64,000 nucleotides of DNA. Source: a virus. Its lineage: Duplodnaviria; Caudoviricetes. Where the stretch lies: IMG/VR virus record IMGVR_UViG_3300033463_000014, positions 1 to 64,000 of that record. The stretch is one strand, 5' to 3'. The position numbers and the translations under genes are program-made. The notes under the pieces are model-generated. The model made no database searches. It was given only the letters and a program-made list of their open reading frames with translations, and had not been told where the DNA came from. Positions 42,475 through 63,349 of the stretch are shown in pieces; position 1 is the stretch's first letter; each line of letters begins with the position of its first letter.

Positions 42475-43494
42475 CTAGCTGCCGCTGCCAGAGTCAGAGC
42501 CCGAGGTTTCGGTGTCCCAGCTTCCCTGGAACTGCGACCCGAACCGGGCCACCGCCATGCCGGCGATGTTGCCGAACGAGAAGCCGCCCAGCCAGTAGCT
42601 GAACCACTTGATGAAGTACGCCTCCTTGTTGAGGTACATCGTCCAGTCGGTCAGCGTGTAGTTGTGGCCGAGGAACGACGGCTCCGCGAAGAAGTAGATG
42701 TACCCCTCCGGGACCAGGCTGCGCTTGATCGTGGAGATCGCCTTGATGCCCATGATCGTGGTCTCGGTGAGGCCGTTCTTCCAGTGCTCCTGGGCAAGGT
42801 CGCCACCGATTTCCTGACGGTTGAGCTTCAGCACGTCGCGCAGCGTGTTCTCGTGCGCAAGCATGACGTAGTTGCGGGCGATGAACTTGTCGTTGGCGTT
42901 TCCGGCCGGCAGCATCTTCGTTGCATCCGTGAACGTGTCGCGGTTGAGGCCTTCCTCGAAGTCCCTCCACTGAACCTTGCCGGTGACGGGATGGACGTTG
43001 CCGGCCACTCCGCCGCCAACAGTGTTGCTGACGATCGAGTTGACGGTGTCGATGAACTTCCGGTCGTGCGTAGCCATGCCGTCCTTGATGCTGTTGTCGG
43101 TGAGCATCTTGCGGATCGGGTAGTTGTACGTCCGGAGCTGGTCGATGTCCTTCGTGAACGCCGGGGTGACGATCCGGGCGAGCGGGGTGATGTACTTGGA
43201 CCCCGTGATGATCTCGCCCTCGGGGACCATCTCGAACGGGACGTACTTCGCTCCCGGGGAATCGGGCTCGAGGTCGTCGATGACGATCAGGTCCTCGGTC
43301 ATGGTCTTCGCCAGCTTCTCGTTGCCGATCTTCTCGGGCGGGAGGATCTTGTTGGCGAAAGAACCCTCACGGATGTTGATGCGCGTCACGTCGCTCGCGG
43401 CCTGCGCCACCTTCTCGATGTCGGCGGACGCGCCCTTCTCGAGCATGGCGCGGAGGTTGCGGTCAAGAATCTGCTCCTGTGCTTCCTTAGTCAT
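42475..43494 (-). CDS. Major capsid protein (HK97-fold, 339 aa)
   Basis: Canonical protease-scaffold-decoration-MCP order; strong codon bias and AGGAG RBS; IREGSFANKILPP and VPEGYIYFFAEP motifs; followed by a hairpin. Confidence 0.8.
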   Translation of the reverse strand: MTKEAQEQILDRNLRAMLEKGASADIEKVAQAASDVTRINIREGSFANKILPPEKIGNEKLAKTMTEDLIVIDDLEPDSPGAKYVPFEMVPEGEIITGSKYITPLARIVTPAFTKDIDQLRTYNYPIRKMLTDNSIKDGMATHDRKFIDTVNSIVSNTVGGGVAGNVHPVTGKVQWRDFEEGLNRDTFTDATKMLPAGNANDKFIARNYVMLAHENTLRDVLKLNRQEIGGDLAQEHWKNGLTETTIMGIKAISTIKRSLVPEGYIYFFAEPSFLGHNYTLTDWTMYLNKEAYFIKWFSYWLGGFSFGNIAGMAVARFGSQFQGSWDTETSGSDSGSGS

Positions 43495-46169: not shown

Positions 46170-46198
46170 ATCATACATAATCCTCTGTGGCGTGTCAA
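46170..46198 (-). promoter_or_regulatory. Sigma70-consensus promoter TTGACA-N17-TATGAT for the scaffold-capsid operon
   Basis: Read directly; lies in the 126-nt intergenic region, with the -35 overlapping the protease stop. Confidence 0.75.
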
Positions 46199-47670
46199 CT
46201 CGCGGACGGCGACACCATGTCCTGCGCCGCTGCGATCGCGATCACGTCGTCCTCACGTATGCCGGCGCATGCCGGCCCTGACAGCGCCGCGGCCAGCGCG
46301 GCCACCTTGTACATCGCGTAGCGCCTGGCCAGCCTGTCCGCGACAGCGGAAACCTCGCCGTCCGCATCCGCGTCCGCGCTTTTCTCCATACGGACGAACT
46401 GCGGGCACTCCCCGGACGCCATGGCAGACAGAATTCCAGTCACGGCGTCCCATGCGGAGAACCCGCCGGCGGACGCGGACTTCGACAGGGCCTCGCGGAT
46501 CGGACCGGGGACCGGACTAGAGAGCGCGAGCGGGCAGGACGGGTCGTAAGACGCGCAGTTGCAGAACCCGGCGCACGACGCCGTCTTGACGGCCTCCGTT
46601 ATGATCCCGGGAACCCTGCGGGCGACATGGCCAGCGTATCGCACGACCTTCCCGTATTCGGGGCCGAACGCGTACTTCAGGAACGATTCGGCGTCGAGGA
46701 TGACGCCGGCGTTCCCGAGCGCGGCGAAGGCGTCGGAAGGGTCAAGGGCCCTGAGCGACGACAGAGTCTCCCCGTCCAGCCTGGCGCCTGCGAGCTTCCT
46801 GAGCTCGAACTCGTATGCCTCCCTAGCCCCCGACGGCTTCGCGCCGCCGAAAATCCACGAGTCCATCCTGGAATAGGCGCCGGCCAGCTTTTTCATGATC
46901 CCGAGCTTCCTGACCGCCAGGTCCGACTCGATGACCAGATCGTCAGGGAGTACGTATCCCTCGATCTCTGCCCGCTTGACGGAACTGCAGATGGGGATGT
47001 CCTCCGGCATGCCAGAAGCGACCTTCAGGCTCCACGCGATGCGGTCCGCTGGCCGGCCGACGAAGGAGATGTCGAACCACGTCGGCTCGTCATTGTAGGT
47101 CCCGATCTGACTGCCGTCCTCCGCGATCTTCCCGAGGCTGTATTTGACGTGGTCGCACTCGTTCTCGTCGCCCGCCTGCTTCCGTATGGCCCCGCAGCAT
47201 GAGCAGCGGTCAAAAGGCACCTTGGCCGCCATGCTGAAGCTGACCTCGCCGGTCTTCTCGAGGCGGTCAAGATGGTCGCGGGCCTTCTCGTTGTCCGCCC
47301 AGATGTACAGCTCGATCCTGTGCATGTCCGGGTTGTATGCCGCGGCCTTGATCTGACCGATTGCCTTTTCGGGGTCCTTGTTCCTGTGGTGCTGGAAGAC
47401 GTGGCCGTACTTCACGAACGTGTCGTGGTACTTGACGCACGCCTCCTTAGGGAACAGATCCCCGTTCCTGTTCATCGGGTACGCCTCTGAGTCCCCGAGG
47501 GCGACCAGGTGGATCCCCGTCATGCCATCCGGAGGCTTGAGCTGGTCGTACCCGCACCTGAAGATCGTGGAGGCCTGCTTTCTCATCTCGGACGCGGACT
47601 TCACGATCTCCCCGCCAACCCCGACGGACTGGCTGATGTCGGAAGAGTATGTGACCTTGATCATCGACAT
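46195..47670 (-). CDS. Prohead maturation protease (HK97/assemblin-like Ser-His protease with a CxxC insert, 491 aa)
   Basis: NRNGDLF, HVFQHH, SFSMAAKVPFDRCSCCG...CDH, FDISFVGRPAD motifs; upstream of the scaffold gene. Confidence 0.75.
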   Translation of the reverse strand: MSMIKVTYSSDISQSVGVGGEIVKSASEMRKQASTIFRCGYDQLKPPDGMTGIHLVALGDSEAYPMNRNGDLFPKEACVKYHDTFVKYGHVFQHHRNKDPEKAIGQIKAAAYNPDMHRIELYIWADNEKARDHLDRLEKTGEVSFSMAAKVPFDRCSCCGAIRKQAGDENECDHVKYSLGKIAEDGSQIGTYNDEPTWFDISFVGRPADRIAWSLKVASGMPEDIPICSSVKRAEIEGYVLPDDLVIESDLAVRKLGIMKKLAGAYSRMDSWIFGGAKPSGAREAYEFELRKLAGARLDGETLSSLRALDPSDAFAALGNAGVILDAESFLKYAFGPEYGKVVRYAGHVARRVPGIITEAVKTASCAGFCNCASYDPSCPLALSSPVPGPIREALSKSASAGGFSAWDAVTGILSAMASGECPQFVRMEKSADADADGEVSAVADRLARRYAMYKVAALAAALSGPACAGIREDDVIAIAAAQDMVSPSAS

Positions 47671-54003: not shown

Positions 54004-56106
54004 CTACACCCCCTTTATCTCGACAGGGTCGTTCGGGCCGATCTCGCCGCCCCTGTACGCCCTGATCGCGTCCGCCTTCGTCTCGAACACCCTGACCGGA
54101 CGCTTCGTCCTGCCCCTCGTAAGCGCCCACAGCCCGGATATCTGCTCCTTCTCGGGCTTGTACCTGACGGACTTCATGTCCGTAAGGCTGATGAGGTTCT
54201 CGGACGGGAGCATCTTCTCAAGGGACTGCTTTGCGGCCTTGTCGCTCGCCGGCACGTGGATGTTCACCGTGTTGCTGAGAACGACGCCGTCGTCTGAAAT
54301 GAACGTGTCGGGGCCTGGCACAGTAAGATCATACCCGATTTCCTCCTTGCCCGTCTTCTCGACGGACTTGATCTTGAGCCACGAAACCTTATATGACGCC
54401 GTCTCCGAAAGGGCCTTCATCTCGGCGCAATCCCTGAGTTCGGTGTCCGGGCTTCCGTACAGGGAAAACAGAGCCTTTATGTCCCCCAATTGTGACCATG
54501 TAAGGAATCCCTTCTTCCTCGCGATGTATATGTCGTTAACCGATTTCCTCACATCGGAGGACCATGTCGGAGCGATCCTTGGCTTCGAGGCGTTCCACCC
54601 GTCCGAGAGGGCTTTCAGCTCGTCGCCGCTCACGCTGACCTTCCACGACCTCCTGCTTCCGCCCGCGTCCTTCTCGAGCATCCCGGAGAACCTCGACTCG
54701 ATATCAGCAAGCACGGACAATCCATTATCCCTTGCGATTGTGTTCTTTTCGGCCATCTCGTTCCCAATGGCCTCGATATCGCGGACGGTATTCCTGGTTA
54801 TCGTTCCGATACACGCGCGATTCCTCACGTTCATGGCGACACTATTCACTTTTCTTCTCATCGCCATCTCGTCTTCTCCTGCGGATCCCTCGTCAGAACC
54901 CGAAACCTCGAAAGTCGGTATCAGACGCGATATCTTTTCCGCTATTCCGCGAGGGAACGGGATCACATCGTTCCTGACGTAGGTTGAGCGCGTGTCAACA
55001 TGGGAAGAGACGAAAATGTCCCTCTTTCTCGAATGGCAGCACATCGAGAGGAGATCCACGCGCTTCGCGTCAACTGTGCTTACTGAGCATATCCAAGAGT
55101 CGTTCCCTCCGGACGTGCGCTTGCTGTAGGAAATAGAAGACCCGACCCCGAGGAGCTGGCAGCACCTCCTGAACTCCCTGACGAGACGGATGGATGTGCT
55201 TGAGAACGATATCAGGAGCTGGGGCTTCTCTTTGCTGTGGCTCAGGCATACCGTCCCGTCCGTAGCGATAAGCCCGTTAACGAGACCAAGGATAAACTCC
55301 CTTCCAGCGAACTGGAACCAGACCGGAAGCCTCTTATTGGCTGACCCGGACGTTTTCTCGTCCCCATGCCCGTCGATGAGCTCCTTGATCCGTCCTCCGA
55401 GAATACTTCGTCTACCGGAGTTCAGCCTGTAAGCGGTCGTGTCCCCGTACCTACCGGACTCATCGCAGAACCTGTGCTCGATCTTCGATATCGTGAAGTC
55501 CGGGAAAACGGTCTTCAGGAAGTCTGATACGAAGGCGATGTTATATCCATCGTTGTCCGAGAGATATGGGTTTAGGCACCTGTCCGCCCATCCGTCTCCA
55601 GCCATGATTCCGACGAACTGTCCGAAACCGAACCCGATTTCAGTACACAGCCCTGACTTTTCCAGCTTGATCATCCCATCCTGAAAATCAAACGACAGGC
55701 CATCAACAGAGGAGGCTAGAGGACAGTCCGATACGGGGACGAGAACATTCTTGTCCATCGCATCGGACGGCGTGAACCTCCCCGGAGTCATTGAGTCTCC
55801 GTTGGCCGCGATGCCGTAGACTGCCCTCGGGTCGTTGTCCGTGATGATCTGCCTTCCGTCCTCAAGGTTTACGATCTCAACCTTCTTCCCCCGATGCACG
55901 GACCAGAATTTGACATCCCTGAACTCGGGGAGACCGGTCTTCTCGTTGTATGAGGAAACCCTCACGCCTTCCGGGACATCGTAGAACTCAATGTCGTATC
56001 CGGAATCCTTCCTCACTGACGAGAGCCCGCCATGGGGGAAGTCCTCGAGATCAACGACAACCGGGACACCTTCCATCTCAGCCACCACGCTCTTTTTGAT
56101 CTGCAT
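54004..56106 (-). CDS. C-terminal split-intein-like part with LAGLIDADG endonuclease, fused to the last 88 aa of the beta'-like RNAP segment (700 aa)
   Basis: FVGIMAGDG and LVNGLIATDG motifs; GYDLTVPG..F...GVVLSN followed by TVNIHVP, which continues NADFDGD. Confidence 0.8.
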   Translation of the reverse strand: MQIKKSVVAEMEGVPVVVDLEDFPHGGLSSVRKDSGYDIEFYDVPEGVRVSSYNEKTGLPEFRDVKFWSVHRGKKVEIVNLEDGRQIITDNDPRAVYGIAANGDSMTPGRFTPSDAMDKNVLVPVSDCPLASSVDGLSFDFQDGMIKLEKSGLCTEIGFGFGQFVGIMAGDGWADRCLNPYLSDNDGYNIAFVSDFLKTVFPDFTISKIEHRFCDESGRYGDTTAYRLNSGRRSILGGRIKELIDGHGDEKTSGSANKRLPVWFQFAGREFILGLVNGLIATDGTVCLSHSKEKPQLLISFSSTSIRLVREFRRCCQLLGVGSSISYSKRTSGGNDSWICSVSTVDAKRVDLLSMCCHSRKRDIFVSSHVDTRSTYVRNDVIPFPRGIAEKISRLIPTFEVSGSDEGSAGEDEMAMRRKVNSVAMNVRNRACIGTITRNTVRDIEAIGNEMAEKNTIARDNGLSVLADIESRFSGMLEKDAGGSRRSWKVSVSGDELKALSDGWNASKPRIAPTWSSDVRKSVNDIYIARKKGFLTWSQLGDIKALFSLYGSPDTELRDCAEMKALSETASYKVSWLKIKSVEKTGKEEIGYDLTVPGPDTFISDDGVVLSNTVNIHVPASDKAAKQSLEKMLPSENLISLTDMKSVRYKPEKEQISGLWALTRGRTKRPVRVFETKADAIRAYRGGEIGPNDPVEIKGV

Positions 56107-56242
56107 CTCCTAAACTCCTTTTCTGATTGGATGCGTGATAATTTATCAAAAACTTAAGATTGATGCAACCAATATCTTTGCTACTCAAAAAGTCGTCAAG
56201 AGCCTTGCCAGTAAGGCTGACGCGAACGCTTCCAATCTGCTG
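54271..56242 (-). mobile_element. Atypical split intein/homing-endonuclease element at the RNAP catalytic motif (IntN 56242-56081, IntC 56106-54271)
   Basis: Removing it restores NADFDGD-TVNIHVP, equivalent to NADFDGD-QMAVHVP of bacterial beta'. Confidence 0.75.
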
Positions 56243-59200
56243 GTCGCCGTCGAAGTCGGCGTTGAACGCGCCACAGACTAGAGGGCAGACGTTGATTGAG
56301 CGCCCTTTCACGATGTGAGGCTTGAAGGCCATGATGTTGAACTTGTGCCACGTCGGGGCCCTGTCCATGAGAACGGGCCGCTCCTCCATGACGTCGTCCA
56401 GTATGTGCCTCGCAGTGGCGTTTCTCTCGTCGATCATCTCCTTTGAGGCGACCGGGGAATAGCCGCGCTGGACGAGCTTGCGCTCTACGAAGGGTCTGAA
56501 TATTGTCCAGGCCATGTCCTCAGGGATCCCGATCTGGTCCATGCTGAGGTTGCCGTTCGGGGTGATGACGGAGCGTCCGACGAGGTCCTGGGTCTTCGAG
56601 ACGGTCTTTGCCTGGAACATCCCCATCTTCGGGACTGTCCCTATCACCTGCCTGACGGCGCCCTTGAGGTTCTTCGCGCGGCCCTCCTGCGTTACGGGGT
56701 CACCGAGCCCGTAGGCGGCCTTCACGGCCCCGTAGACGGCAAGGCGCTCGTCCGCGAGGGCGGAGGCGGGGAGCTCCCTGGAGAGGTCCTCGTAGTTGCG
56801 CTTCATCTCGATGAGCTCCTTGTAGAGCTCGTTCATGTCGGGCACGAGGGCTACGTCGCCCATCTTGGAGACCGGGCGGAACATGGGCGGGAGAACGGGA
56901 ACCCGCGAGATCATCCAGTCTGACGGAGAGATGCCCATCTTATTGGCGGACTTCAGGTATCCGAGGACCTTAACGGCGTTGTCCCGCTGCGCCCCGCGCC
57001 TGGTTAGAACCTCCGAGCGGGCCTTCTCGATGGCGCCGTCCACGTCGACCTTCGACAGGGCTTCCCTGAGGGCTTCCCCGCCCGTCTTGCCGTTCAGCTC
57101 CTCGCGTCCGGAGAGGACGGCCTCCATTTTCTTCGCCGTCAGTCCGAGGACGCGGCGTACGGGCTCCTCCATCATCGGGTTTGGGACGGGATCCGGGAGC
57201 GTGATCATGCTCCAGCGGTTTCCGCCCATCCCGCCCGTCTTTCCGAGGTCGAAGAGTCCTCCCCTTACGGGGTTCATGTCGGGGTCGACCATCTGCGAGG
57301 AGTCGATCACTCGGCCCTGGGCGAGCTCGTCGATGTCCTTGTCGGTCTGCGGCATGATGGATGTGACGTCTCCCTTCTCCACGACGTTCACGCCGCCGGC
57401 GCGGAGTGTGTTCAGGAACTTCTGGTAGATGAACGGCACTCCGGGCTCCTCGACGGGGAGCCCGAGGCGGTAGCGGCGCCAGTACTCGTCGTTGCGCGAG
57501 CCGCGCAGGGTTATGGAGTCCTTCAGGACGTCGGTCGCGCCGTGAGAGAGCAGGGCCGTCGCGTCAAAACCAGAATTTGAAACCAGGCAGTCAGAAGCAC
57601 AGTATTTGTGCGATTTCGCAACTGTAATGTCATACAGGCATATTTCGTCGTCTGGACCATGCTTGCCATCGCTGTACGGCCTCACAGATGTGACAAGCGC
57701 CGGGACGCTTCCAAGTGCGTAAGCAGTGTCTACACCTACGTACGTTTCATACAGCCTTGAAACTTCATTTATCAGCCACTTCTTAGAGGCTGGTATGTCT
57801 TCAGGCCTGATGTATTTGGCTACAATACGAGCCATACTGCGGCAGGCATCAGCAGACAACCCCAAGTAATAATACTCTTTTTTTACACCTTTGTAGGTTT
57901 TATGCGTCGTCCTGACAGTCACGCCAGCGCCAAGCCTCCCGCAAAGCCATTCGGCAAGCCTACAGTTCTCTTCATACGTAAAGTTCAATGTTGATATTGC
58001 CCCAAATGGGCTACCGGTCGGCACTCCATTCTTCGTGTGCTCAGATGCGCAGCCATCGTCAAGGAACCATGCGGCTATGCCGACATCATTTATGTTAGAC
58101 AGGTCGACGTTGACAAGGCTCTTACGACCGAGAGACCCGTCTGGCTGTCTATAGAACATGTTCTTGAGCCGTTCTGCTATGTCATGGCGGTGAATCTGAA
58201 AATACACAATATGCGAGTCGTCTCCATCAGCACGCCTAAATCCAGTCTTGCTCTTCCTCTGGGTGTTCTTTCTGCTTGACACCAGCGCTCCTAGGCAGTG
58301 TATCTTCCAGTTGACGTAGGCGTACTGATGGTGGCTGTGCTGCTCTTGGTAGAACGGTATACATCCGACGTCTAAGCTATTCGTCCTGTCAGACTTGCAT
58401 AGATTGTCGTTTATATTGCATATGCATCCATCGCCAAGCATAGAACCCATTAGAATGGACATCTGGTCCTCTGTAGGCACATACCCGTATGTCGTCAGCC
58501 AGTCACCAGGCCTTAAATCACCAGCAAGAACTTCACCTTTGTTGAAGGAGTACATGTGATGCTGACGTGTGACATGCATCGTCTTGCCTGTGTATACTAC
58601 TCGCTTACGGCTACAATTATCTGACCCTGGCAGATAGTTAATTGATATGGACAGAACCTCTGACATCTTCCCCTTGCGGCAGAACCAGTTCGTTATGAGA
58701 GAATAACCCCATGACCCGTTGTCGAAGCGGGTCCACACGTATTCGGGAATTTTCTTGTCTACGATATGACCTATGGATTCCTCTCCATGCAATACCCTGA
58801 TCGGCTGATCTGCGGTGAAACACATACGCTTAGCACCGTCATCGCCCCCCTTGGCCGGCTGCTCGTCCATCGTGTAGGCGCTGTCCACGCCGCGTGCCGA
58901 GAACTTCTTTTCGGCCAGGTGGTGGAACGCCTTGACGTACGCGTACCCGTCTCCGACGTTCTTGATGATCCTTCCCGTCTGCGGGTCGAACACGTCTGAC
59001 GACTCCTTGACGCCGTTCTCGTCCATCTGCCGTTTGACCCATGCGGTCCACCCCTCTTGCGGCGGCAGCTGAGGGATGCGGATCTGCTTCCCTGTCTTCT
59101 TGGCCACCTTGGCGAGGTTCATCAGGGCTATCTGGCCCGGGGCGACGCGGGAGAGGAAACCCATGGGGTTCATCAGCATGTCGTACGGCTCGTTCGTGGC

Positions 59201-62200
59201 CGCGTCGCGCGGCATCTTATCGTCCGGGATGACGTCCGAGACGACCCCCTTTAGAGAGAAATCGGGGCACAGCTTGTCGCCGGGCTTCACAGGAGGGTCG
59301 CTGTTGACGATCACCTTCGCGCCGTGCGGTCCCGACACGATGTCCGTGACGACTCCAGGCCAGTCGTGCTCCCACTTCTGTGATCTGTCCGTGATGGCGT
59401 TCCTCAGGACGCCGGAGAGCTTTCCGAGCTGTGCGTTCTCCGGTGACAGCATCTTGGGCCCGATGGCGAGGATCATGGGGTCGTCCCTGTGGAGCACGGT
59501 ACCGACCTTTACGACGCCGTCGTCCCCGATCGTGTCGGCCTGCGCCTTCGTGTAGGCCGACGGGAACGCCGCGAGGAACTTCGACCTGGCGATCTGCACG
59601 CCGTTCTTAGTGTCCTGCTCGAAGTTGTACGTGCGCGACGTGGCGAGCTTCTTCGCCGCGGATTCCGAGATCACGATGGCGTCCTCGAACGACGACGTGC
59701 CCTGCGGGGCGGGAAGCACGGCGACCTTCAGGTTCCGTCCCATGGTGACCGTTCCGGTCTTCGGGTCGGTGAAGTTGGAGTTGGCGAGGATTCCGCCCTC
59801 CTCCACCTCGTCTCCCTTTTTCACCTGGGCGGTGAACGAGAGGGAGGACAGGCGGTTGAACGGGAGGCCCTTGACGAGCGACGCGGTGTGCTCGCGGCCG
59901 TCCTTCCCGCGGAGGACGATCTCATTGTCGCTCACCTTCACTACGGTACCGGCGAACGGGGCCGTCAGGCATCCGACCCTCCGCCCGTAGTACTCGCCGT
60001 ACGTCGTTTTCCCGTCGTCGGTCAGGCTCTCGACAAGAGGAACCTCTCCCTCTTTCTGGGGGAGGAACTGCTCCCAGAACTTCGACATGTAGAACTGGCG
60101 GGCGCCCATGACGGCCGTTGGCATCGGGTTCATGTTGATGCCGGCAGACACGGTGTTGCCGAACCCAGGCACCATGAAGTCCACCTCGTCCCTGGGGACC
60201 ATCGTAGGCACGCCCTTGCGCATGACGTAGAGGTTGGGTGACTTCGGGTCCTGGCCCGGGAAGGCCACGGTGTGGGACGACGCGTCGTTCAGGGAGACGT
60301 AGCGGGTTTTACCGGTCCGCATGTCGATCATCTTGTTGTAGATCCGGTTGTCGCTCCCCTTCATCGTCCCGAGCGCCGCCCTGACGTCGATCCCGATGCC
60401 GAACGACTCAGGACCGCTGATGAAGTCCACGTAGCCCAGGTAGTCACCCTGGACGTTGCGGGCCTCGTTGGTCACGAGGTCGGGCGAGGAGATGCCGCCC
60501 TCCCCAAGGCGGGTGATGCGGGACTGCTGGGTGAGGAGCGACATCGGGTTCGCCTCCTCTCCTGGCATCGCGAGTCCGGACCCCGAGAGAAAGGTGTCGA
60601 GATAGGGCCCGAGCGCGTTCCTGGCTATGCGGGCCAGCGAGCGGTCCCGCTTCGCCCTGAACAGGAGGGACTTCGTGAGGCGTCCAGAGTCGCGGTCGAT
60701 GCGCTCGCGCATCATGTCCTCCACCCCGTAGAACCGGCTGAAGCGGGGGTTGTCGCGCTCGTCCGGCTCCTCAGCGCCCCTGTTGATGTTCAGGAGCTTC
60801 TGCGCGGCCCTGAGCATGACCTTCCCGGTCACTCCAGAGGCGTTCTCAAGCCCGAGCGTCCGGACGACGACGTCTGGGTCGAGCCCGCTGGAGGCAAGCG
60901 ACTCGGAGATGAACGAGGCCTTCTCGGACGGGGTCAGGCTCATGTCGGCCCGGCGGCCGGCGTAGCGCGCGTAGACCTTGTCGACGGCCCTAGGGTCGAA
61001 CTTGGCGATGTTCACGTTCGCAACGGCGTCTCCCCAGGACTTCCGCATGTCGTCATCCGACACGCCGAGGGCGCTCAAAATGGGGTAAAGGGGGACATGG
61101 CCCTGTCCGACGCTCATGTTCAGTGCGCCGGTCGACCTGTCCAGTCCGATCCGGAAGCCGAGCCCGTTCGCCACGTTGAACTGGGACTCGAGCTCGCCGT
61201 TCTGCTTGCGGCGCACGTAGACCCCGGGGGACAGGCGGGCCTGAGAGATGACGGTGTACTCGCTCCCGTTATTGATGATCGTTCCCCTGTCGGTGTAGTA
61301 AGGTACCCTGATGACGCCGTCCCTTCGCTCGTCCAGGACTTTCCCGGTGCGCTTGTCCGTCAGGCGCCACGTCCCGGCGACAGAGCATCCGAGGCGCCTG
61401 TTGTTCAGGATGGCCCTCTTCTGCTGCTCAAGCGTGTAGGAGGTAGGACCCTCGTATTTAACGTCCAGAAGCTCGAGGCGCACGTCGTCGTTCTCGATCG
61501 GGAAGCGGTTCTTGACGGCTTCAAGGACGTTGTCCATGATGGCCTGCCGAGTGGCCGGCGCGTCCGTGAACCCGCGTAGCCTCACGCCCGGAGGCACGCC
61601 CTCCATGGGATCGTCGGCGTCGTCCGCCTGGGAAGTCTTGACTATGCTCTTCTCTTTCTTATATCCGGAAGCAGTCTCCTCGTCGTCAAGATTCTTCTGA
61701 GCCTCTTCCCGAGTGTTGAACACCTTCCCGGGATGGTCTCCGAACCCGCCGTACATGGCGAGTCCGGTGGTCTTAAACCTTCCCCCTTCTTCGATGTCTG
61801 GGGAATCTAGCCAGCAGCAGTAGTAATCCTTTCCGTTGGACCGCTTCCCGCCGTAATAGTATCCTACGATCTTACGTACCTTTCCACTCATCCTCGCGTG
61901 AGGGAAGGTTACCCATTTCCCGATAGGAAATTTTTCCTTCATTTCCGCGGGGATATCATCCTCCTCATGACGATCTTGCGATGTCTTGACGATGCTCTTT
62001 TTTTCGGCTGGATCTGATTTGGCGGCAGGGGCCTTGTCCGCGGGAGCCTGTTTTTCGGTCTTGGCTGGATTCGAGGCCTCCTGGTTCAGGACCCAGACGT
62101 CACCGTTCCTCCTGAGCCTCTTCATGAAGTCGCTGTGGAGCTTCGCCGACTTCGCGACGGCCGCCTCGCTGTAGCTCCTGTTCCCGGGTATCGTGTGGGC

Positions 62201-63349
62201 AGGAGTAAACACCTTTCTCAGAAGCCAGTCGGCGTACTTGTCAGCGGTGAACTCCGCCCCGGCGGCCATGTGGGCCTTGTAACCGGACCTGGACGGCATG
62301 TAGACCTTCGTGAAATAGTCGATCTGGCTGTCGGACGAGTCTTGAAGCCCGTTCTTCGCGAGCCACGCCTTATAAGCATCAAGAGAGGGGCCCGTGTACT
62401 GGAAGAGCCCGCGTCCACCTCCCCCTCCCATCTGCTTAGTGGCGTAGTCGAATCTACCTCCTGTCTCCCTGTCTATGTTCGCCAGCACAGCGGCCTCTAG
62501 AATCGGGTTGTTCAGATTCTCGTGGAGCCTCTTTGCAACGTTATTGAACCTTTCGTAGACATCCACCGGACCGGCGGCTTGCTTTGGCGGGGGGATAACA
62601 ATTTTCTGCCCGATAGAGAGAACGTTCGGGTTCTTGAGGCTGTTCGCGGCGATCAGCTCTTTCAAAGGAACCTTTAGCTTTTGGGCGATACCGTAAAGCG
62701 AGTCGCCCTTCTGGACGACGTATTCGGACGGGCGATTGACAGGATTGACCTGGGCCGCCTTCTCGTTGACCTTTATCGGATCGACGATCGGAGCGACGGA
62801 CCTGTACTCGTGGAACGGCTTGGTCTTGCGGTCAGACGAGTCGATCCACTTCCTGAACTCGGCCTTGGAGACAGGCGTGATCCATCCTAGGCCATTCCAC
62901 CCCTTCTGGTAGCAGGCTAGGTAGGTCTTCTTGGCGTCCTCGACGCTGTCGAAACCGTACATGACCTTGTGCTCGTCGAACTTTCCGGTCTTGGGGTCCA
63001 CCTGGTCGATGACGAAGACGCACCCCTTCTCCGGATGGTCGGACAGGTAGATGTCCACCGGGTCGCCGTCCGTGTCTGTCGTGCCCCTGATGTCTCCGTA
63101 GTCGCATGCGAGAGCATTGCTCCACCTCGTCCCGTCCGGAGAGACCCCGGATCGGATTGACCCCTTCGGGTTCTCTATGGACACGCGGAACCCGTCGATG
63201 GACAGGTGGACCTTTCTGTAGTTCCCCGCCCTTCTCTGCCCTTCTGTGGGGTTCTCGGCTGCGTCAGGGGCTCCTGCGTTCACGGCGCGCTGCGCCGGCG
63301 AGGAGGCCTTTTTCGAGAAGATCGAGTCGATGGTTTCAAGTAGCGTCAT
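56078..63349 (-). CDS. Polyprotein (2423 aa): PPase-like + LysM + phage-tail-lysozyme-like + small insert + fused beta/beta' multisubunit-type RNA polymerase, with a cis intein and a terminal IntN
   Basis: ENPKGS..DYG..DGDPVD..DEHK; YVVQKGDSLYGIA..NPNVLSIGQKIVIP; ANIDRETGG..GLFQYT; beta motifs GRNL..FEDAIVISE, GDKL..KGVV, NPMGFLSR, HHLAEKKFSAR; beta' motifs VPVLPPMFRP, GRSVITP, RAPTWH, NADFDGD. Confidence 0.9.
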   Translation of the reverse strand: MTLLETIDSIFSKKASSPAQRAVNAGAPDAAENPTEGQRRAGNYRKVHLSIDGFRVSIENPKGSIRSGVSPDGTRWSNALACDYGDIRGTTDTDGDPVDIYLSDHPEKGCVFVIDQVDPKTGKFDEHKVMYGFDSVEDAKKTYLACYQKGWNGLGWITPVSKAEFRKWIDSSDRKTKPFHEYRSVAPIVDPIKVNEKAAQVNPVNRPSEYVVQKGDSLYGIAQKLKVPLKELIAANSLKNPNVLSIGQKIVIPPPKQAAGPVDVYERFNNVAKRLHENLNNPILEAAVLANIDRETGGRFDYATKQMGGGGGRGLFQYTGPSLDAYKAWLAKNGLQDSSDSQIDYFTKVYMPSRSGYKAHMAAGAEFTADKYADWLLRKVFTPAHTIPGNRSYSEAAVAKSAKLHSDFMKRLRRNGDVWVLNQEASNPAKTEKQAPADKAPAAKSDPAEKKSIVKTSQDRHEEDDIPAEMKEKFPIGKWVTFPHARMSGKVRKIVGYYYGGKRSNGKDYYCCWLDSPDIEEGGRFKTTGLAMYGGFGDHPGKVFNTREEAQKNLDDEETASGYKKEKSIVKTSQADDADDPMEGVPPGVRLRGFTDAPATRQAIMDNVLEAVKNRFPIENDDVRLELLDVKYEGPTSYTLEQQKRAILNNRRLGCSVAGTWRLTDKRTGKVLDERRDGVIRVPYYTDRGTIINNGSEYTVISQARLSPGVYVRRKQNGELESQFNVANGLGFRIGLDRSTGALNMSVGQGHVPLYPILSALGVSDDDMRKSWGDAVANVNIAKFDPRAVDKVYARYAGRRADMSLTPSEKASFISESLASSGLDPDVVVRTLGLENASGVTGKVMLRAAQKLLNINRGAEEPDERDNPRFSRFYGVEDMMRERIDRDSGRLTKSLLFRAKRDRSLARIARNALGPYLDTFLSGSGLAMPGEEANPMSLLTQQSRITRLGEGGISSPDLVTNEARNVQGDYLGYVDFISGPESFGIGIDVRAALGTMKGSDNRIYNKMIDMRTGKTRYVSLNDASSHTVAFPGQDPKSPNLYVMRKGVPTMVPRDEVDFMVPGFGNTVSAGINMNPMPTAVMGARQFYMSKFWEQFLPQKEGEVPLVESLTDDGKTTYGEYYGRRVGCLTAPFAGTVVKVSDNEIVLRGKDGREHTASLVKGLPFNRLSSLSFTAQVKKGDEVEEGGILANSNFTDPKTGTVTMGRNLKVAVLPAPQGTSSFEDAIVISESAAKKLATSRTYNFEQDTKNGVQIARSKFLAAFPSAYTKAQADTIGDDGVVKVGTVLHRDDPMILAIGPKMLSPENAQLGKLSGVLRNAITDRSQKWEHDWPGVVTDIVSGPHGAKVIVNSDPPVKPGDKLCPDFSLKGVVSDVIPDDKMPRDAATNEPYDMLMNPMGFLSRVAPGQIALMNLAKVAKKTGKQIRIPQLPPQEGWTAWVKRQMDENGVKESSDVFDPQTGRIIKNVGDGYAYVKAFHHLAEKKFSARGVDSAYTMDEQPAKGGDDGAKRMCFTADQPIRVLHGEESIGHIVDKKIPEYVWTRFDNGSWGYSLITNWFCRKGKMSEVLSISINYLPGSDNCSRKRVVYTGKTMHVTRQHHMYSFNKGEVLAGDLRPGDWLTTYGYVPTEDQMSILMGSMLGDGCICNINDNLCKSDRTNSLDVGCIPFYQEQHSHHQYAYVNWKIHCLGALVSSRKNTQRKSKTGFRRADGDDSHIVYFQIHRHDIAERLKNMFYRQPDGSLGRKSLVNVDLSNINDVGIAAWFLDDGCASEHTKNGVPTGSPFGAISTLNFTYEENCRLAEWLCGRLGAGVTVRTTHKTYKGVKKEYYYLGLSADACRSMARIVAKYIRPEDIPASKKWLINEVSRLYETYVGVDTAYALGSVPALVTSVRPYSDGKHGPDDEICLYDITVAKSHKYCASDCLVSNSGFDATALLSHGATDVLKDSITLRGSRNDEYWRRYRLGLPVEEPGVPFIYQKFLNTLRAGGVNVVEKGDVTSIMPQTDKDIDELAQGRVIDSSQMVDPDMNPVRGGLFDLGKTGGMGGNRWSMITLPDPVPNPMMEEPVRRVLGLTAKKMEAVLSGREELNGKTGGEALREALSKVDVDGAIEKARSEVLTRRGAQRDNAVKVLGYLKSANKMGISPSDWMISRVPVLPPMFRPVSKMGDVALVPDMNELYKELIEMKRNYEDLSRELPASALADERLAVYGAVKAAYGLGDPVTQEGRAKNLKGAVRQVIGTVPKMGMFQAKTVSKTQDLVGRSVITPNGNLSMDQIGIPEDMAWTIFRPFVERKLVQRGYSPVASKEMIDERNATARHILDDVMEERPVLMDRAPTWHKFNIMAFKPHIVKGRSINVCPLVCGAFNADFDGDQQIGSVRVSLTGKALDDFLSSKDIGCINLKFLINYHASNQKRSLGDADQKERGG
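56140..56168 (-). promoter_or_regulatory. Internal promoter TTGCAT-N17-TAAATT with downstream AGGAG RBS for the IntC ORF
   Basis: AT-rich island inside the IntN coding sequence; AAAAGGAG 8 nt before ATG 56106. Confidence 0.55.
57575..58822 (-). mobile_element. Canonical class-1 intein (416 aa) with LAGLIDADG homing endonuclease in the beta C-terminal region
   Basis: GAKRM/CFTAD start; block B VTRQH; GSMLGDG and AWFLDDG; YDITVAKSHKY..LVSN/SGFD end; lower GC than the flanks. Confidence 0.9.
61626..62005. repeat. Imperfect direct repeat (KSIVKTSQ, gtcttgac.atgctctt) flanking a ~105-aa insert in the RNAP polyprotein
   Basis: EKKSIVKTSQD at about 61975-62005 and KEKSIVKTSQAD at about 61626-61658. 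Confidence 0.75.

What the first reader, a model, noticed from the sequence alone, without database searches (positions are those of the whole stretch)
61600..63349. Pyrophosphatase, LysM and lysozyme domains fused ahead of the RNA polymerase: an injected entry-and-transcription polyprotein
Seen: a PPase-like domain (about 63250-62800), LysM (62725-62592) and a phage-tail-lysozyme-like domain (about 62560-62090) precede the RNAP, separated by KxA/KTS linkers. Known: this PPase-like domain occurs in phage polyvalent proteins, and PPi removal favours NTP polymerisation. Cell-wall binding and hydrolysis make most sense for a virion-delivered protein. Inference: the RNAP is packaged as a polyprotein and matured by the head protease into a wall-opening enzyme, a PPase and an early-transcription polymerase.
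Basis: partly seen in the sequence, partly recalled or inferred. Interest (0 to 1): 0.85.

Follow-up and report, generated by a model that had tools for sequence, protein, structure and literature searches.

The report
Phage RNA polymerase carrying cargo enzymes
A large uncultured phage makes its only RNA polymerase as one giant precursor that also carries a pyrophosphatase, a cell-wall-binding lysozyme and a small barrel domain. Each part is bounded by a short motif that looks like a head-protease cut site, so the enzymes are probably loaded into the capsid together and injected with the DNA.

Summary
One 2423-codon ORF (56078-63349, minus strand) encodes four things in a row. These are InPase (PF18823, E 2e-50), LysM, a lysozyme-fold domain (best structural match phi29 tail enzyme gp13; invariant Glu295), and a small SH3/Tudor-like barrel. 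A beta-beta'N multisubunit RNA polymerase then follows in the same frame.

It is not an assembly artefact. About 90 protein clusters from independent metagenomes carry InPase-RNAP fusions, and 7 of them carry the LysM-lysozyme cassette.

Between InPase and the polymerase, relatives hold a hypervariable array of modules, including HExxH peptidases and GNAT-like modules. Each module is bounded by K-x-[A/S]-[Q/E]. That motif is about 58 times denser in the arrays than in the polymerase core. It is enriched in this genome's head-module proteins and invariant near the N-terminus of 118 capsid-protein homologues.

The nearest cultured homologue, Salmonella phage Arash gp206, has the highest spectral count in the virion proteome.

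The polyprotein reading is therefore well supported by comparison, but cleavage, packaging and enzyme activities are untested here.

It is a new variant of the "polyvalent protein" principle, known for N4-like single-subunit polymerases and here built on a multisubunit polymerase.

Other notes of this scan flagged related fusions in other genomes.

The parts
56078..63349 (-). Whole 2423-aa precursor ORF: N-terminal cargo array plus RNA polymerase beta and beta' N-half.
63302..63313 (-). N-proximal K-K-A-S (aa 13-16) in a leader that is nearly invariant among homologues. It may be the first processing site or a capsid-targeting leader.
   Evidence: Consensus. Inference.
62843..63241 (-). InPase domain (family-I pyrophosphatase-like, PF18823), aa 37-169. 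E59, K62, R66, Y84, D94, D96, D99, D115, D125, E126 and K128 are conserved.
62750..62773 (-). Boundary motif 1, KVNEKAAQ (aa 193-200).
62591..62722 (-). LysM peptidoglycan-binding domain, aa 210-253. It is the only LysM in the genome.
62087..62560 (-). Lysozyme-fold domain (Phage_lysozyme2 / phi29 gp13 N-domain-like), aa 264-421, with invariant Glu295.
61976..61999 (-). Boundary motif 2, KSIVKTSQ (aa 451-458), at the end of a low-complexity linker.
61670..61954 (-). Small beta-barrel module with a C-terminal helix (SH3/Tudor/chromo-barrel-like), aa ~466-560. It is the commonest module in related arrays (52 of 88 clusters). Function unknown.
61628..61651 (-). Boundary motif 3, KSIVKTSQ (aa 567-574), 20 aa before the conserved start of the polymerase core.
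58823..61597 (-). RNA polymerase beta-like part (aa 585-1509). Homologous to Arash gp206 from its residue 21.
57575..58822 (-). Canonical LAGLIDADG intein in beta (aa 1510-1925; Cys1, terminal Asn, Ser+1). Absent from most homologues.
56243..57574 (-). RNA polymerase beta' N-half (aa 1926-2369), ending in the catalytic NADFDGD.
56081..56242 (-). 54-aa tail after NADFDGD. It is the short N-piece of a conserved split intein-like element.
54004..56106 (-). Next ORF (700 aa, own RBS). It holds the rest of the Hint/LAGLIDADG element. After ...VLSN come TVNIHVP and the last 87 aa of the beta'N protein, as seen uninterrupted in homologues.
46195..47670 (-). Candidate prohead protease (weak assignment).
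   Evidence: phrog_18299, E 9e-5; 37% identical to a Vibrio phage D69 gene; nothing in Pfam, NCBIfam or PDB.
42475..43494 (-). Major capsid protein as annotated by the first-stage notes. It carries K-x-A-Q at aa 3-6 and 28-31.

Best explanation
The gene encodes a phage 'polyvalent' head-cargo precursor built on a multisubunit RNA polymerase.

Proposed sequence of events:
1. It is expressed with the head-assembly genes and incorporated into the prohead. The polymerase half associates with the separately encoded beta' C-half.
2. It is cut at K-x-[A/S]-[Q/E] sites, most likely by the prohead protease.
3. This yields four products: (i) an InPase pyrophosphatase, (ii) a LysM-lysozyme, (iii) a small barrel domain and (iv) the polymerase.
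4. All are ejected with the DNA.
5. The lysozyme then acts locally on peptidoglycan during entry. The polymerase starts phage transcription, and the pyrophosphatase removes PPi or a related phosphoanhydride next to it.

Shown here:
- The domain identities and the conserved catalytic residues.
- The conserved fusion and the modular, motif-bounded array.
- The motif's concentration in head proteins.

Taken from a relative: virion association of the polymerase.

Inferred: the cleavage, the protease responsible, the ejection, and what each module does in the cell.
For: 1. Domains. InPase, LysM, Phage_lysozyme2, Rpb2_6 and Rpb1_2 lie in one frame.
- The lysozyme model has pLDDT 91.5. Its best PDB match is the phi29 tail cell-wall enzyme gp13 (3csq/3csr, probability 1.0, TM 0.52-0.64). 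Phage lytic transglycosylases and GH19 enzymes follow.
- Glu295 is invariant in 62 homologues.
- The InPase acidic residues, including D-G-D-x-x-D, are conserved between the RNAP-fused and the polyvalent-protein versions.

2. The fusion is real and selected. Of 88 clusters with an InPase-RNAP fusion, 7 also have LysM-lysozyme. They come from contigs of up to 192 kb in several assemblies.

3. Modular array. The InPase-to-RNAP spacer varies from about 40 to about 720 aa. It consists of interchangeable modules, each ending in K-x-[AS]-[QE].
- Motif density is 1.15 per 100 aa in the arrays, 0.02 in the RNAP core and 0 in InPase.
- The last motif sits 19-23 aa before the core landmark in 80 of the 88 clusters.
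- On an RNAP-core tree, the LysM-lysozyme label needs at least 5 gains or losses. It behaves as exchangeable cargo.

4. Link to head maturation.
- In this genome the strict motif occurs 7 times in the head module (0.7 expected). It occurs 0 times in 36,000 aa elsewhere (2.3 expected).
- An N-proximal motif is present in 9 of 19 head-module ORFs against 5 of 194 others (Fisher p 7e-8).
- All but two of the 120 capsid-protein homologues listed keep K-x-A-Q about 25-32 aa from the N-terminus. The preceding residues diverge.

5. The two KSIVKTSQ copies differ at 4 synonymous positions and are not a DNA repeat. The peptide is therefore what is conserved.

6. Packaging.
- The gene lies directly upstream of the head-assembly genes.
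- Arash gp206 (30% identical) has the most spectra in the virion proteome. The beta'C homologue gp216 is also abundant (PMC10585845).
- InPase is otherwise found in polyvalent, MuF-like and portal proteins.

7. Precedent.
- Prohead proteases of phiKZ-like phages cut head proteins at a short motif, and their vRNAP is in the head (PMC10052503).
- N4-like vRNAPs are fused to lysozyme and other effector domains (PMC5512222).
Against: - There are no proteomic or biochemical data for this phage or for any member of its clade.
- Arash and Vibrio phage D69 lack InPase and the whole array. Their data say nothing about processing.
- The Arash preparation listed 116 proteins, including obviously metabolic enzymes. 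Virion association may therefore be overstated.
- The protease assignment rests on one weak PHROG hit.
- The scissile bond within the motif is unknown.
- Conserved motifs at module junctions could also be recombination joints or plain linkers.
- The motif counts come from related sequences and are not independent.
- A contractile-tailed phage usually carries its wall-digesting enzyme at the tail tip. A capsid-internal lysozyme would have to leave through the tail.
- The polymerase frame is interrupted by an intein and by a split intein-like element with a non-nucleophilic first residue. Its maturation is itself unproven.
Confidence: 0.6

Rival explanations
1. An uncut, tethered multidomain ejection protein. 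The whole polypeptide is packaged and ejected as one chain, like the N4 virion polymerase. The K-x-A-Q stretches are only flexible linkers or recombination joints. The LysM-lysozyme works in the periplasm while the chain threads through the envelope. The pyrophosphatase stays attached to the polymerase in the cytoplasm.
For: - N4-like vRNAPs act as giant multidomain proteins fused to lysozyme and other domains.
- A physical tether would best explain why a PPase is fused to a polymerase.
- Rapid module exchange could be served by short conserved junction sequences.
- Another note on this genome describes module swapping at conserved anchors (e1-5781143, not tested here).
Against: - The motif is not confined to this protein. 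It is enriched near the N-termini of many head-module proteins and is invariant in the capsid protein. A linker or recombination role does not explain that.
- The duplicated motif is conserved as peptide, not as DNA.
- A single chain would have to work in two compartments, the periplasm and the cytoplasm.
Confidence: 0.2
2. Not a virion protein. The polymerase is a cytoplasmic, late-made phage RNAP. Its N-terminal PPase simply improves transcription yield. The LysM-lysozyme is a lysis enzyme, or an inert passenger picked up by recombination.
For: - Only one RNAP set is detectable in the genome, so it may serve all transcription phases.
- No SLT, T4-type lysozyme or Amidase_2 endolysin was found elsewhere, and this is the only LysM. 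The cassette could therefore be the phage's muralytic enzyme.
- Close standalone LysM-lysozyme homologues with signal-peptide-like N-termini exist.
Against: - The homologue is highly abundant in Arash virions.
- The gene sits in the head module.
- The InPase family is tied to portal, MuF-like and polyvalent proteins.
- 81 of 88 related phages lack the cassette in this gene, so it cannot be the clade's general endolysin.
- Only a few endolysin families were searched, so the absence elsewhere is weak.
- There is no signal sequence or holin link for a lysozyme buried inside a 2423-aa protein.
Confidence: 0.1
3. Assembly or annotation artefact: unrelated genes joined by a chimeric contig or by a missed stop or frameshift.
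For: The record is a metagenome-derived virus contig.
Against: - The frame is open for 2423 codons.
- The same InPase-LysM-lysozyme-RNAP order is found in 6 other clusters and the InPase-RNAP fusion in about 80 more, from ENA, Logan, JGI and NCBI assemblies.
- One homologue was read on 8 contigs.
Confidence: 0.01

Closest known systems
Polyvalent proteins of phages, especially N4-like virion RNA polymerases fused to metallopeptidase, lysozyme, ART and RNase domains (Iyer et al. 2017, PMC5512222)
   Same: A giant phage protein strings an early-acting polymerase together with unrelated effector enzymes. InPase and lysozyme are both listed as phage-type polyvalent domains. Delivery with the DNA and processing into units were proposed, as was PPi clearance to aid early transcription.
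   Different: - There the polymerase is a single-subunit T7-like enzyme and processing is assigned to an in-chain zincin peptidase. Here the polymerase is a cellular-type beta-beta' enzyme.
- This protein has no peptidase module; 9 of 88 relatives do.
- The boundaries carry a motif shared with head proteins.
- No paper in the library reports a multisubunit polymerase in such a fusion.
Salmonella phage Arash gp206/gp216 and Vibrio phages D69/D181/D148
   Same: They have the same split of the polymerase into a beta-beta'N fusion plus a separate beta'C. Identity is about 30% over the whole core. The genomes are about 180 kb. gp206 and gp216 are among the most abundant proteins in Arash virion preparations.
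   Different: - They have no InPase anywhere in the genome and no N-terminal array. gp206 starts 20 aa before the core.
- There the gene follows the portal gene. Here the portal homologue is at 164.5 kb.
phiKZ/SPN3US-type virion RNA polymerase and prohead-protease maturation
   Same: A multisubunit RNAP is carried in the head and ejected. Many head proteins lose propeptides at a short protease motif (PMC10052503).
   Different: - Those phages use 4-5 separate small subunits and have a second, non-virion set.
- Their motif is A-x-E rather than K-x-A-Q.
- No enzymes are fused to the polymerase.
phi29 gp13 and T7 gp16 (virion-borne wall hydrolases)
   Same: The gp13 N-domain is the best structural match of the lysozyme module. 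From general knowledge, T7 gp16 is a capsid-internal, ejected protein with a transglycosylase domain. That is the same logic as proposed here.
   Different: - gp13 sits on the tail knob and is paired with a LytM peptidase.
- Neither protein is fused to a polymerase or to LysM.
Pbunavirus portal gp19 (Pa193, PDB 9b41) and BcepF1 portal with a C-terminal InPase
   Same: It is the only PDB sequence match of the InPase module (E 6e-28). There the domain is attached to the capsid-interior end of the portal.
   Different: There it is fused to a structural protein and is invisible in the map (residues 529-765 have no density). Here it heads a polymerase precursor.
Thermus phage P23-45 tape-measure-fused virion RNAP (PMC10770324)
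   Same: A cellular-type RNAP is delivered by fusion to a protein that leaves the virion with the DNA (abstract).
   Different: The fusion partner is the tape measure, and the polymerase is a minimal two-barrel enzyme. There is no enzyme cargo array.

Membership tests
InPase (Pfam PF18823; family-I pyrophosphatase-like domain of polyvalent proteins) | Match to the family model above the curated cut-off. | tested here: met
   170.4 bits against 26.8, model positions 2-134 of 135; 176 bits on the genome.
InPase (Pfam PF18823; family-I pyrophosphatase-like domain of polyvalent proteins) | Conserved acidic metal-binding residues, including the D-x-D-x-x-D signature. | tested here: met
   E59, D94, D96, D99, D115, D125 and E126, plus K62, R66, Y84 and K128. 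Each is at least 90% conserved in both the 91 RNAP-fused and the 32 polyvalent copies. Mapping them onto classical PPase residues is from memory.
InPase (Pfam PF18823; family-I pyrophosphatase-like domain of polyvalent proteins) | Pyrophosphatase activity. | not testable with these tools
   Needs an enzyme assay. The family's own substrate is only predicted.
LysM (PF01476) | Match to the model above cut-off over its full length. | tested here: met
   56.1 bits against 20.9, positions 1-43 of 43. PDB LysM chains match at E down to 4e-14.
Phage_lysozyme2 (PF18013) / phi29 gp13 N-domain-like lysozyme | Sequence match above cut-off. | tested here: met
   32.4 bits against 28.2, but only model positions 21-88 of 140. 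There are 207 relatives at E<=1e-3 in 1.8 billion representatives.
Phage_lysozyme2 (PF18013) / phi29 gp13 N-domain-like lysozyme | Lysozyme-like fold. | tested here: met
   Model pLDDT 91.5. Foldseek top hits are 3csq/3csr (probability 1.0, TM 0.52-0.64, E 1e-3). All further hits are lysozyme-superfamily enzymes. The E-value is borderline.
Phage_lysozyme2 (PF18013) / phi29 gp13 N-domain-like lysozyme | Catalytic glutamate retained. | tested here: met
   E295 (in ..RETGG..) is invariant in the 62-sequence alignment A1. That it is the catalytic residue is inferred.
Phage polyvalent proteins (Iyer et al. 2017) | Several functionally unrelated effector domains in one phage polypeptide, in variable combinations among relatives. 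| tested here: met
   The polypeptide holds four N-terminal modules plus the RNAP. Related arrays differ in content and order.
Phage polyvalent proteins (Iyer et al. 2017) | Gene placed with the head-morphogenesis genes. | tested here: met
   It lies directly upstream of the candidate protease, scaffold-like and capsid genes.
Phage polyvalent proteins (Iyer et al. 2017) | In-chain zincin metallopeptidase for self-processing (typical, not universal). | tested here: not met
   There is no HExxH in the array of this protein. 9 of 88 related arrays have an HExxH module.
Phage polyvalent proteins (Iyer et al. 2017) | Packaged in the virion and delivered into the host. | not testable with these tools
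   Indirect only: Arash homologue in virion MS.
Virion-packaged multisubunit RNA polymerase | Beta and beta' catalytic modules present and intact. | tested here: inconclusive
   Rpb2_6 and Rpb1_2 are present with NADFDGD, and beta'C is at 172628-175687. However, the catalytic loop is interrupted by a split intein-like element whose splicing is unproven.
Virion-packaged multisubunit RNA polymerase | Protein present in purified virions. | not testable with these tools
   Known only for the 30%-identical Arash gp206/gp216.
Virion-packaged multisubunit RNA polymerase | A second, non-virion polymerase set (phiKZ-type arrangement). | tested here: not met
   There is only one place each for Rpb2_6, Rpb1_2 and Rpb1_5 at E<=0.1. 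Very divergent copies could be missed.
Substrates of a prohead maturation protease | A shared short motif at propeptide or domain boundaries of head proteins, including the capsid protein. | tested here: met
Substrates of a prohead maturation protease | Cleavage at that motif demonstrated. | not testable with these tools
   Needs N-terminomics or an in-vitro protease assay.

The most novel reading that the evidence does not exclude
A whole clade of ~180-kb uncultured phages uses the N-terminus of its only RNA polymerase as a combinatorial cargo-loading rack. The invariant leader plus InPase brings the precursor into the prohead. Any module inserted between K-x-A-Q sites (lysozyme, zincin peptidase, GNAT, small barrels) is released inside the capsid by the head protease and injected. 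Sister phages with near-identical polymerases therefore deliver different enzyme sets. This would be a natural, rapidly reshuffled protein-delivery system coupled to a previously undescribed protease code.
Probability: 0.35. Interest if true: 0.75.

Novelty: new variant of a known kind. Interest (0 to 1): 0.62.

Why it matters
- It extends the polyvalent-protein principle from N4-like single-subunit polymerases to a cellular-type beta-beta' polymerase.
- It links that principle to ordinary prohead-protease maturation rather than to an in-chain peptidase.
- It proposes a concrete, testable cleavage code (K-x-[A/S]-[Q/E]) for a large clade with no cultured member.
- The direct fusion of a pyrophosphatase to an RNA polymerase is conserved in about 90 protein clusters. 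This is unusually clear genomic evidence that PPi removal matters at the first moments of phage transcription.
- The fast turnover of modules between near-identical polymerases suggests a natural way to load arbitrary enzymes into capsids. That is of practical interest for engineered phages in laboratory hosts.

Tried and rejected
1. The 608-aa ORF just upstream (63465-65291) as the portal, by analogy with Arash. Rejected. It does not match the Arash portal (E 0.06). The true homologue is at 164565-166364 (E 2e-59).

2. The duplicated KSIVKTSQ as a recent DNA duplication or recombination anchor. Rejected. No DNA repeat was found, and there are 4 synonymous differences in 8 codons.

3. Identifying the small barrel module.
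- The ESM Atlas feature search gave nothing above 0.86 and no family.
- Foldseek gave only weak SH3/Tudor/chromo-barrel, eIF5A and Mfd/CarD-like hits (E>=0.13).
- The fold class is tentative and the function is open.

4. Firming up the protease. Pfam, NCBIfam and the PDB sequence search gave nothing.

5. Using N-terminal K-x-A-Q in standalone LysM-lysozyme homologues as further support. Set aside. Several of those N-termini look like Tat/Sec signal peptides, and one contig is only a distant phage relative.

6. Read support across the junctions.

7. The sigma-factor ORF at ~152.9 kb as another polyprotein. It shows no sign of that.

8. Searches for other endolysin families covered only SLT, Phage_lysozyme and Amidase_2. 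Absence of an endolysin elsewhere is not established.
Full report
**What is there**

The window is the first 64 kb of a 181,382-bp virus record with direct terminal repeats. On the minus strand, 56078-63349 is a single open frame of 2423 codons.

Pfam places the following in that frame:
- InPase (PF18823) at aa 37-169, E 2.3e-50.
- LysM at aa 210-253, E 3.5e-15.
- Phage_lysozyme2 (PF18013) at aa 286-352, 32.4 bits against a cut-off of 28.2.
- RNA_pol_Rpb2_6, then a LAGLIDADG endonuclease, then RNA_pol_Rpb1_2.

In window coordinates these are 62843-63241, 62591-62722 and, from the model, 62087-62560.

**The individual modules**

InPase:
[quoted passage not shown] That part lies at the capsid-interior end of the portal and has no density in the map.
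- Its acidic residues E59, D94, D96, D99, D115, D125 and E126 are conserved. So are K62, R66, Y84 and K128. All hold both in the polymerase-fused copies and in copies from classical polyvalent proteins.

Lysozyme region:
- It has 207 relatives in a library of 1.8 billion representatives.
- A 62-sequence alignment keeps Glu295 invariant.
- The AlphaFold2 model is confident (pLDDT 91.5).
- Its best structural match is the lysozyme domain of the phi29 tail enzyme gp13 (probability 1.0, TM 0.52-0.64, E 1e-3). Phage transglycosylases, GH19 enzymes and Slt/Mlt follow.
- LysM plus this lysozyme is a pre-existing two-domain cassette. It also occurs as standalone proteins of 275-440 aa.

Fourth module:
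- It folds confidently (pLDDT 85) into a small beta-barrel plus helix. Only weak SH3/Tudor-like matches were found.

**The polymerase part**

- From aa ~585 the protein is colinear with gp206 of Salmonella phage Arash, at 30% identity over about 1400 aligned residues.
- It is likewise colinear with the Vibrio phage D69/D181/D148 genes.
- It contains beta, a canonical intein (aa 1510-1925) and the N-half of beta' up to NADFDGD.
- The beta' C-half is a 1019-aa ORF at 172628-175687, with another intein.
- No second polymerase set is detectable.
- A sigma-70 family gene lies near 152.9 kb.

**Not an artefact, and part of a family**

A search with the first 600 aa found about 90 clusters of InPase-polymerase fusions. 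They come from contigs of up to 192 kb in ENA, Logan, JGI and NCBI data.
- Of 88 clusters that could be parsed, 7 have LysM-lysozyme, 52 have the small barrel and 9 have an HExxH module.
- The spacer between InPase and the polymerase core ranges from about 40 to about 720 aa.
- It is an array of interchangeable modules, including Arg-rich helices and GNAT-like and zincin-like domains.
- On a tree of the polymerase core, the LysM-lysozyme label needs at least five gains or losses. For example, P0009 (with the cassette) is sister to P0081 (InPase joined almost directly to the core).
- The cassette is therefore accessory and mobile. InPase and a nearly invariant 30-aa leader are constant.
- Arash and D69 have no InPase at all.

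**The linkers**

Every module ends in a short motif of the form K-x-[A/S]-[Q/E]. Examples are PIKVKAAE, EKTAQA, KEAQ and VKTSQ.
- Across the 88 clusters it occurs 1.15 times per 100 aa in the arrays, 0.02 in the polymerase core and never in InPase. In 80 of them the last copy lies 19-23 aa before the core landmark.
- These sequences are related, so the numbers describe a pattern and are not independent events.
- In this protein the motif stands at aa 197-200, 455-458 and 571-574, with a K-K-A-S at aa 13-16.
- The two KSIVKTSQ copies differ at four synonymous positions and are not a DNA repeat.

**Link to head maturation**

- Within this genome the strict motif occurs 7 times in the head-module proteins (0.7 expected from shuffles).
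- It does not occur at all in 36,000 aa outside the virion region (2.3 expected).
- A motif within the first 40 residues is found in 9 of 19 head-module ORFs against 5 of 194 others (Fisher p 7e-8).
- The capsid protein carries K-V-A-Q at aa 28-31.
- All but two of the 120 homologues listed, down to 56% identity, keep K-x-A-Q at that place. The residues before it diverge completely between subgroups.
- This is the pattern expected of a prohead-protease site. Such sites are documented for T4- and phiKZ-like phages, where the motif is A-x-E and the virion polymerase sits in the head.
- The candidate protease here (46195-47670) is only weakly identified.

**Packaging**

- The gene lies immediately upstream of the head-assembly genes.
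- In Arash, gp206 has the highest spectral count of the virion proteome (3516), and the beta'C homologue gp216 has 1210. The authors note that abundant non-structural proteins may contaminate the preparation.
- InPase is otherwise known from polyvalent, MuF-like and portal proteins.

**Comparison with what is known**

- Iyer et al. 2017 defined polyvalent proteins. They described N4-like virion polymerases fused to zincin peptidases, lysozymes and other effectors. They also proposed that InPase clears PPi for early transcription.
- I found no paper in the library that reports InPase, or any polyvalent array, on a multisubunit polymerase.
- The finding is thus a new variant of a known kind.
- Other notes of this scan report 1785-aa InPase-polymerase fusions in another genome. 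They also report an InPase inserted in a polymerase loop between K-x-A motifs. These agree with the present reading but are not independent evidence.

**Verdict**

The most likely reading (about 0.6) is a head-cargo precursor that is cut at the motifs into a pyrophosphatase, a LysM-lysozyme, a small barrel domain and the polymerase, all injected with the DNA.

The main rival (about 0.2) is the same protein delivered uncut.

Cleavage, the protease, packaging of this protein and both enzyme activities remain to be shown.

Noticed in passing
window 56081-56242 and 54004-56106 (minus): The stop 54 codons after NADFDGD is conserved. At least 14 homologue clusters end 43-54 aa after DGD with a similar tail (..QIGSV.I.L.NKAL..F..S.D.GCINLKTL..). 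Another 3 have a contiguous insert at the same site, and 47 have none (DGD-TVNIHVP). It is a naturally split intein-like element with a short N-piece and a variable, non-nucleophilic first residue (Q/L/K/E/M). It sits in the catalytic loop of beta'.
   Followed up: partly
G000 172628-175687 (L010:1629-4688, minus): The beta' C-half is a separate 1019-aa gene about 110 kb from the beta-beta'N gene. It carries its own Hint/LAGLIDADG intein. The polymerase genes of this phage thus hold three intein-type elements.
   Followed up: partly
G000 164565-166364 (minus): This is the homologue of the Arash portal (26% identity, E 2e-59). In Arash and D69 the portal gene directly precedes the polymerase gene. 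Here the polymerase gene has moved next to the head-assembly genes.
   Followed up: partly
window 37457-63349, head-module ORFs: Nine of 19 head-module ORFs have K-x-[AS]-[QES] within the first 40 residues. Examples are the 913-aa protein at aa 25, the 413-aa at aa 20, the 314-aa at aa 17 and the protease candidate at aa 24. Elsewhere it is 5 of 194. These are likely short propeptides.
   Followed up: partly
L011:19695-22343 (relative carrying P0006): In this relative the homologue of the candidate prohead protease is itself interrupted by a Hint/LAGLIDADG intein (882 aa against 491 aa here).
   Followed up: no
Homologues P0005, P0063, P0072, P0064, P0067, P0087, P0049, P0078, P0082 (N-terminal arrays): Nine related polymerase precursors carry HExxH (zincin-like) modules in the array. 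P0024 carries a GNAT-like module. This is the same domain repertoire as classical polyvalent proteins.
   Followed up: no
G000 175703-176494 (minus): The 263-aa ORF just upstream of beta'C has an N-proximal ..VKRAQ.. motif. It is one of only five ORFs outside the head module that do, so it may be another packaged protein.
   Followed up: no
Proteins P0060 and P0076: Some classical polyvalent proteins carry two near-identical InPase copies in one chain.
   Followed up: no
L007:8941-8960 and L008:8938-8957: Arash gp206 and D69's homologue begin MPKSAS.. and MPKKAS... That is a K-x-A-S at residues 3-6. It resembles the K-K-A-S at aa 13-16 of the leader here.
   Followed up: no
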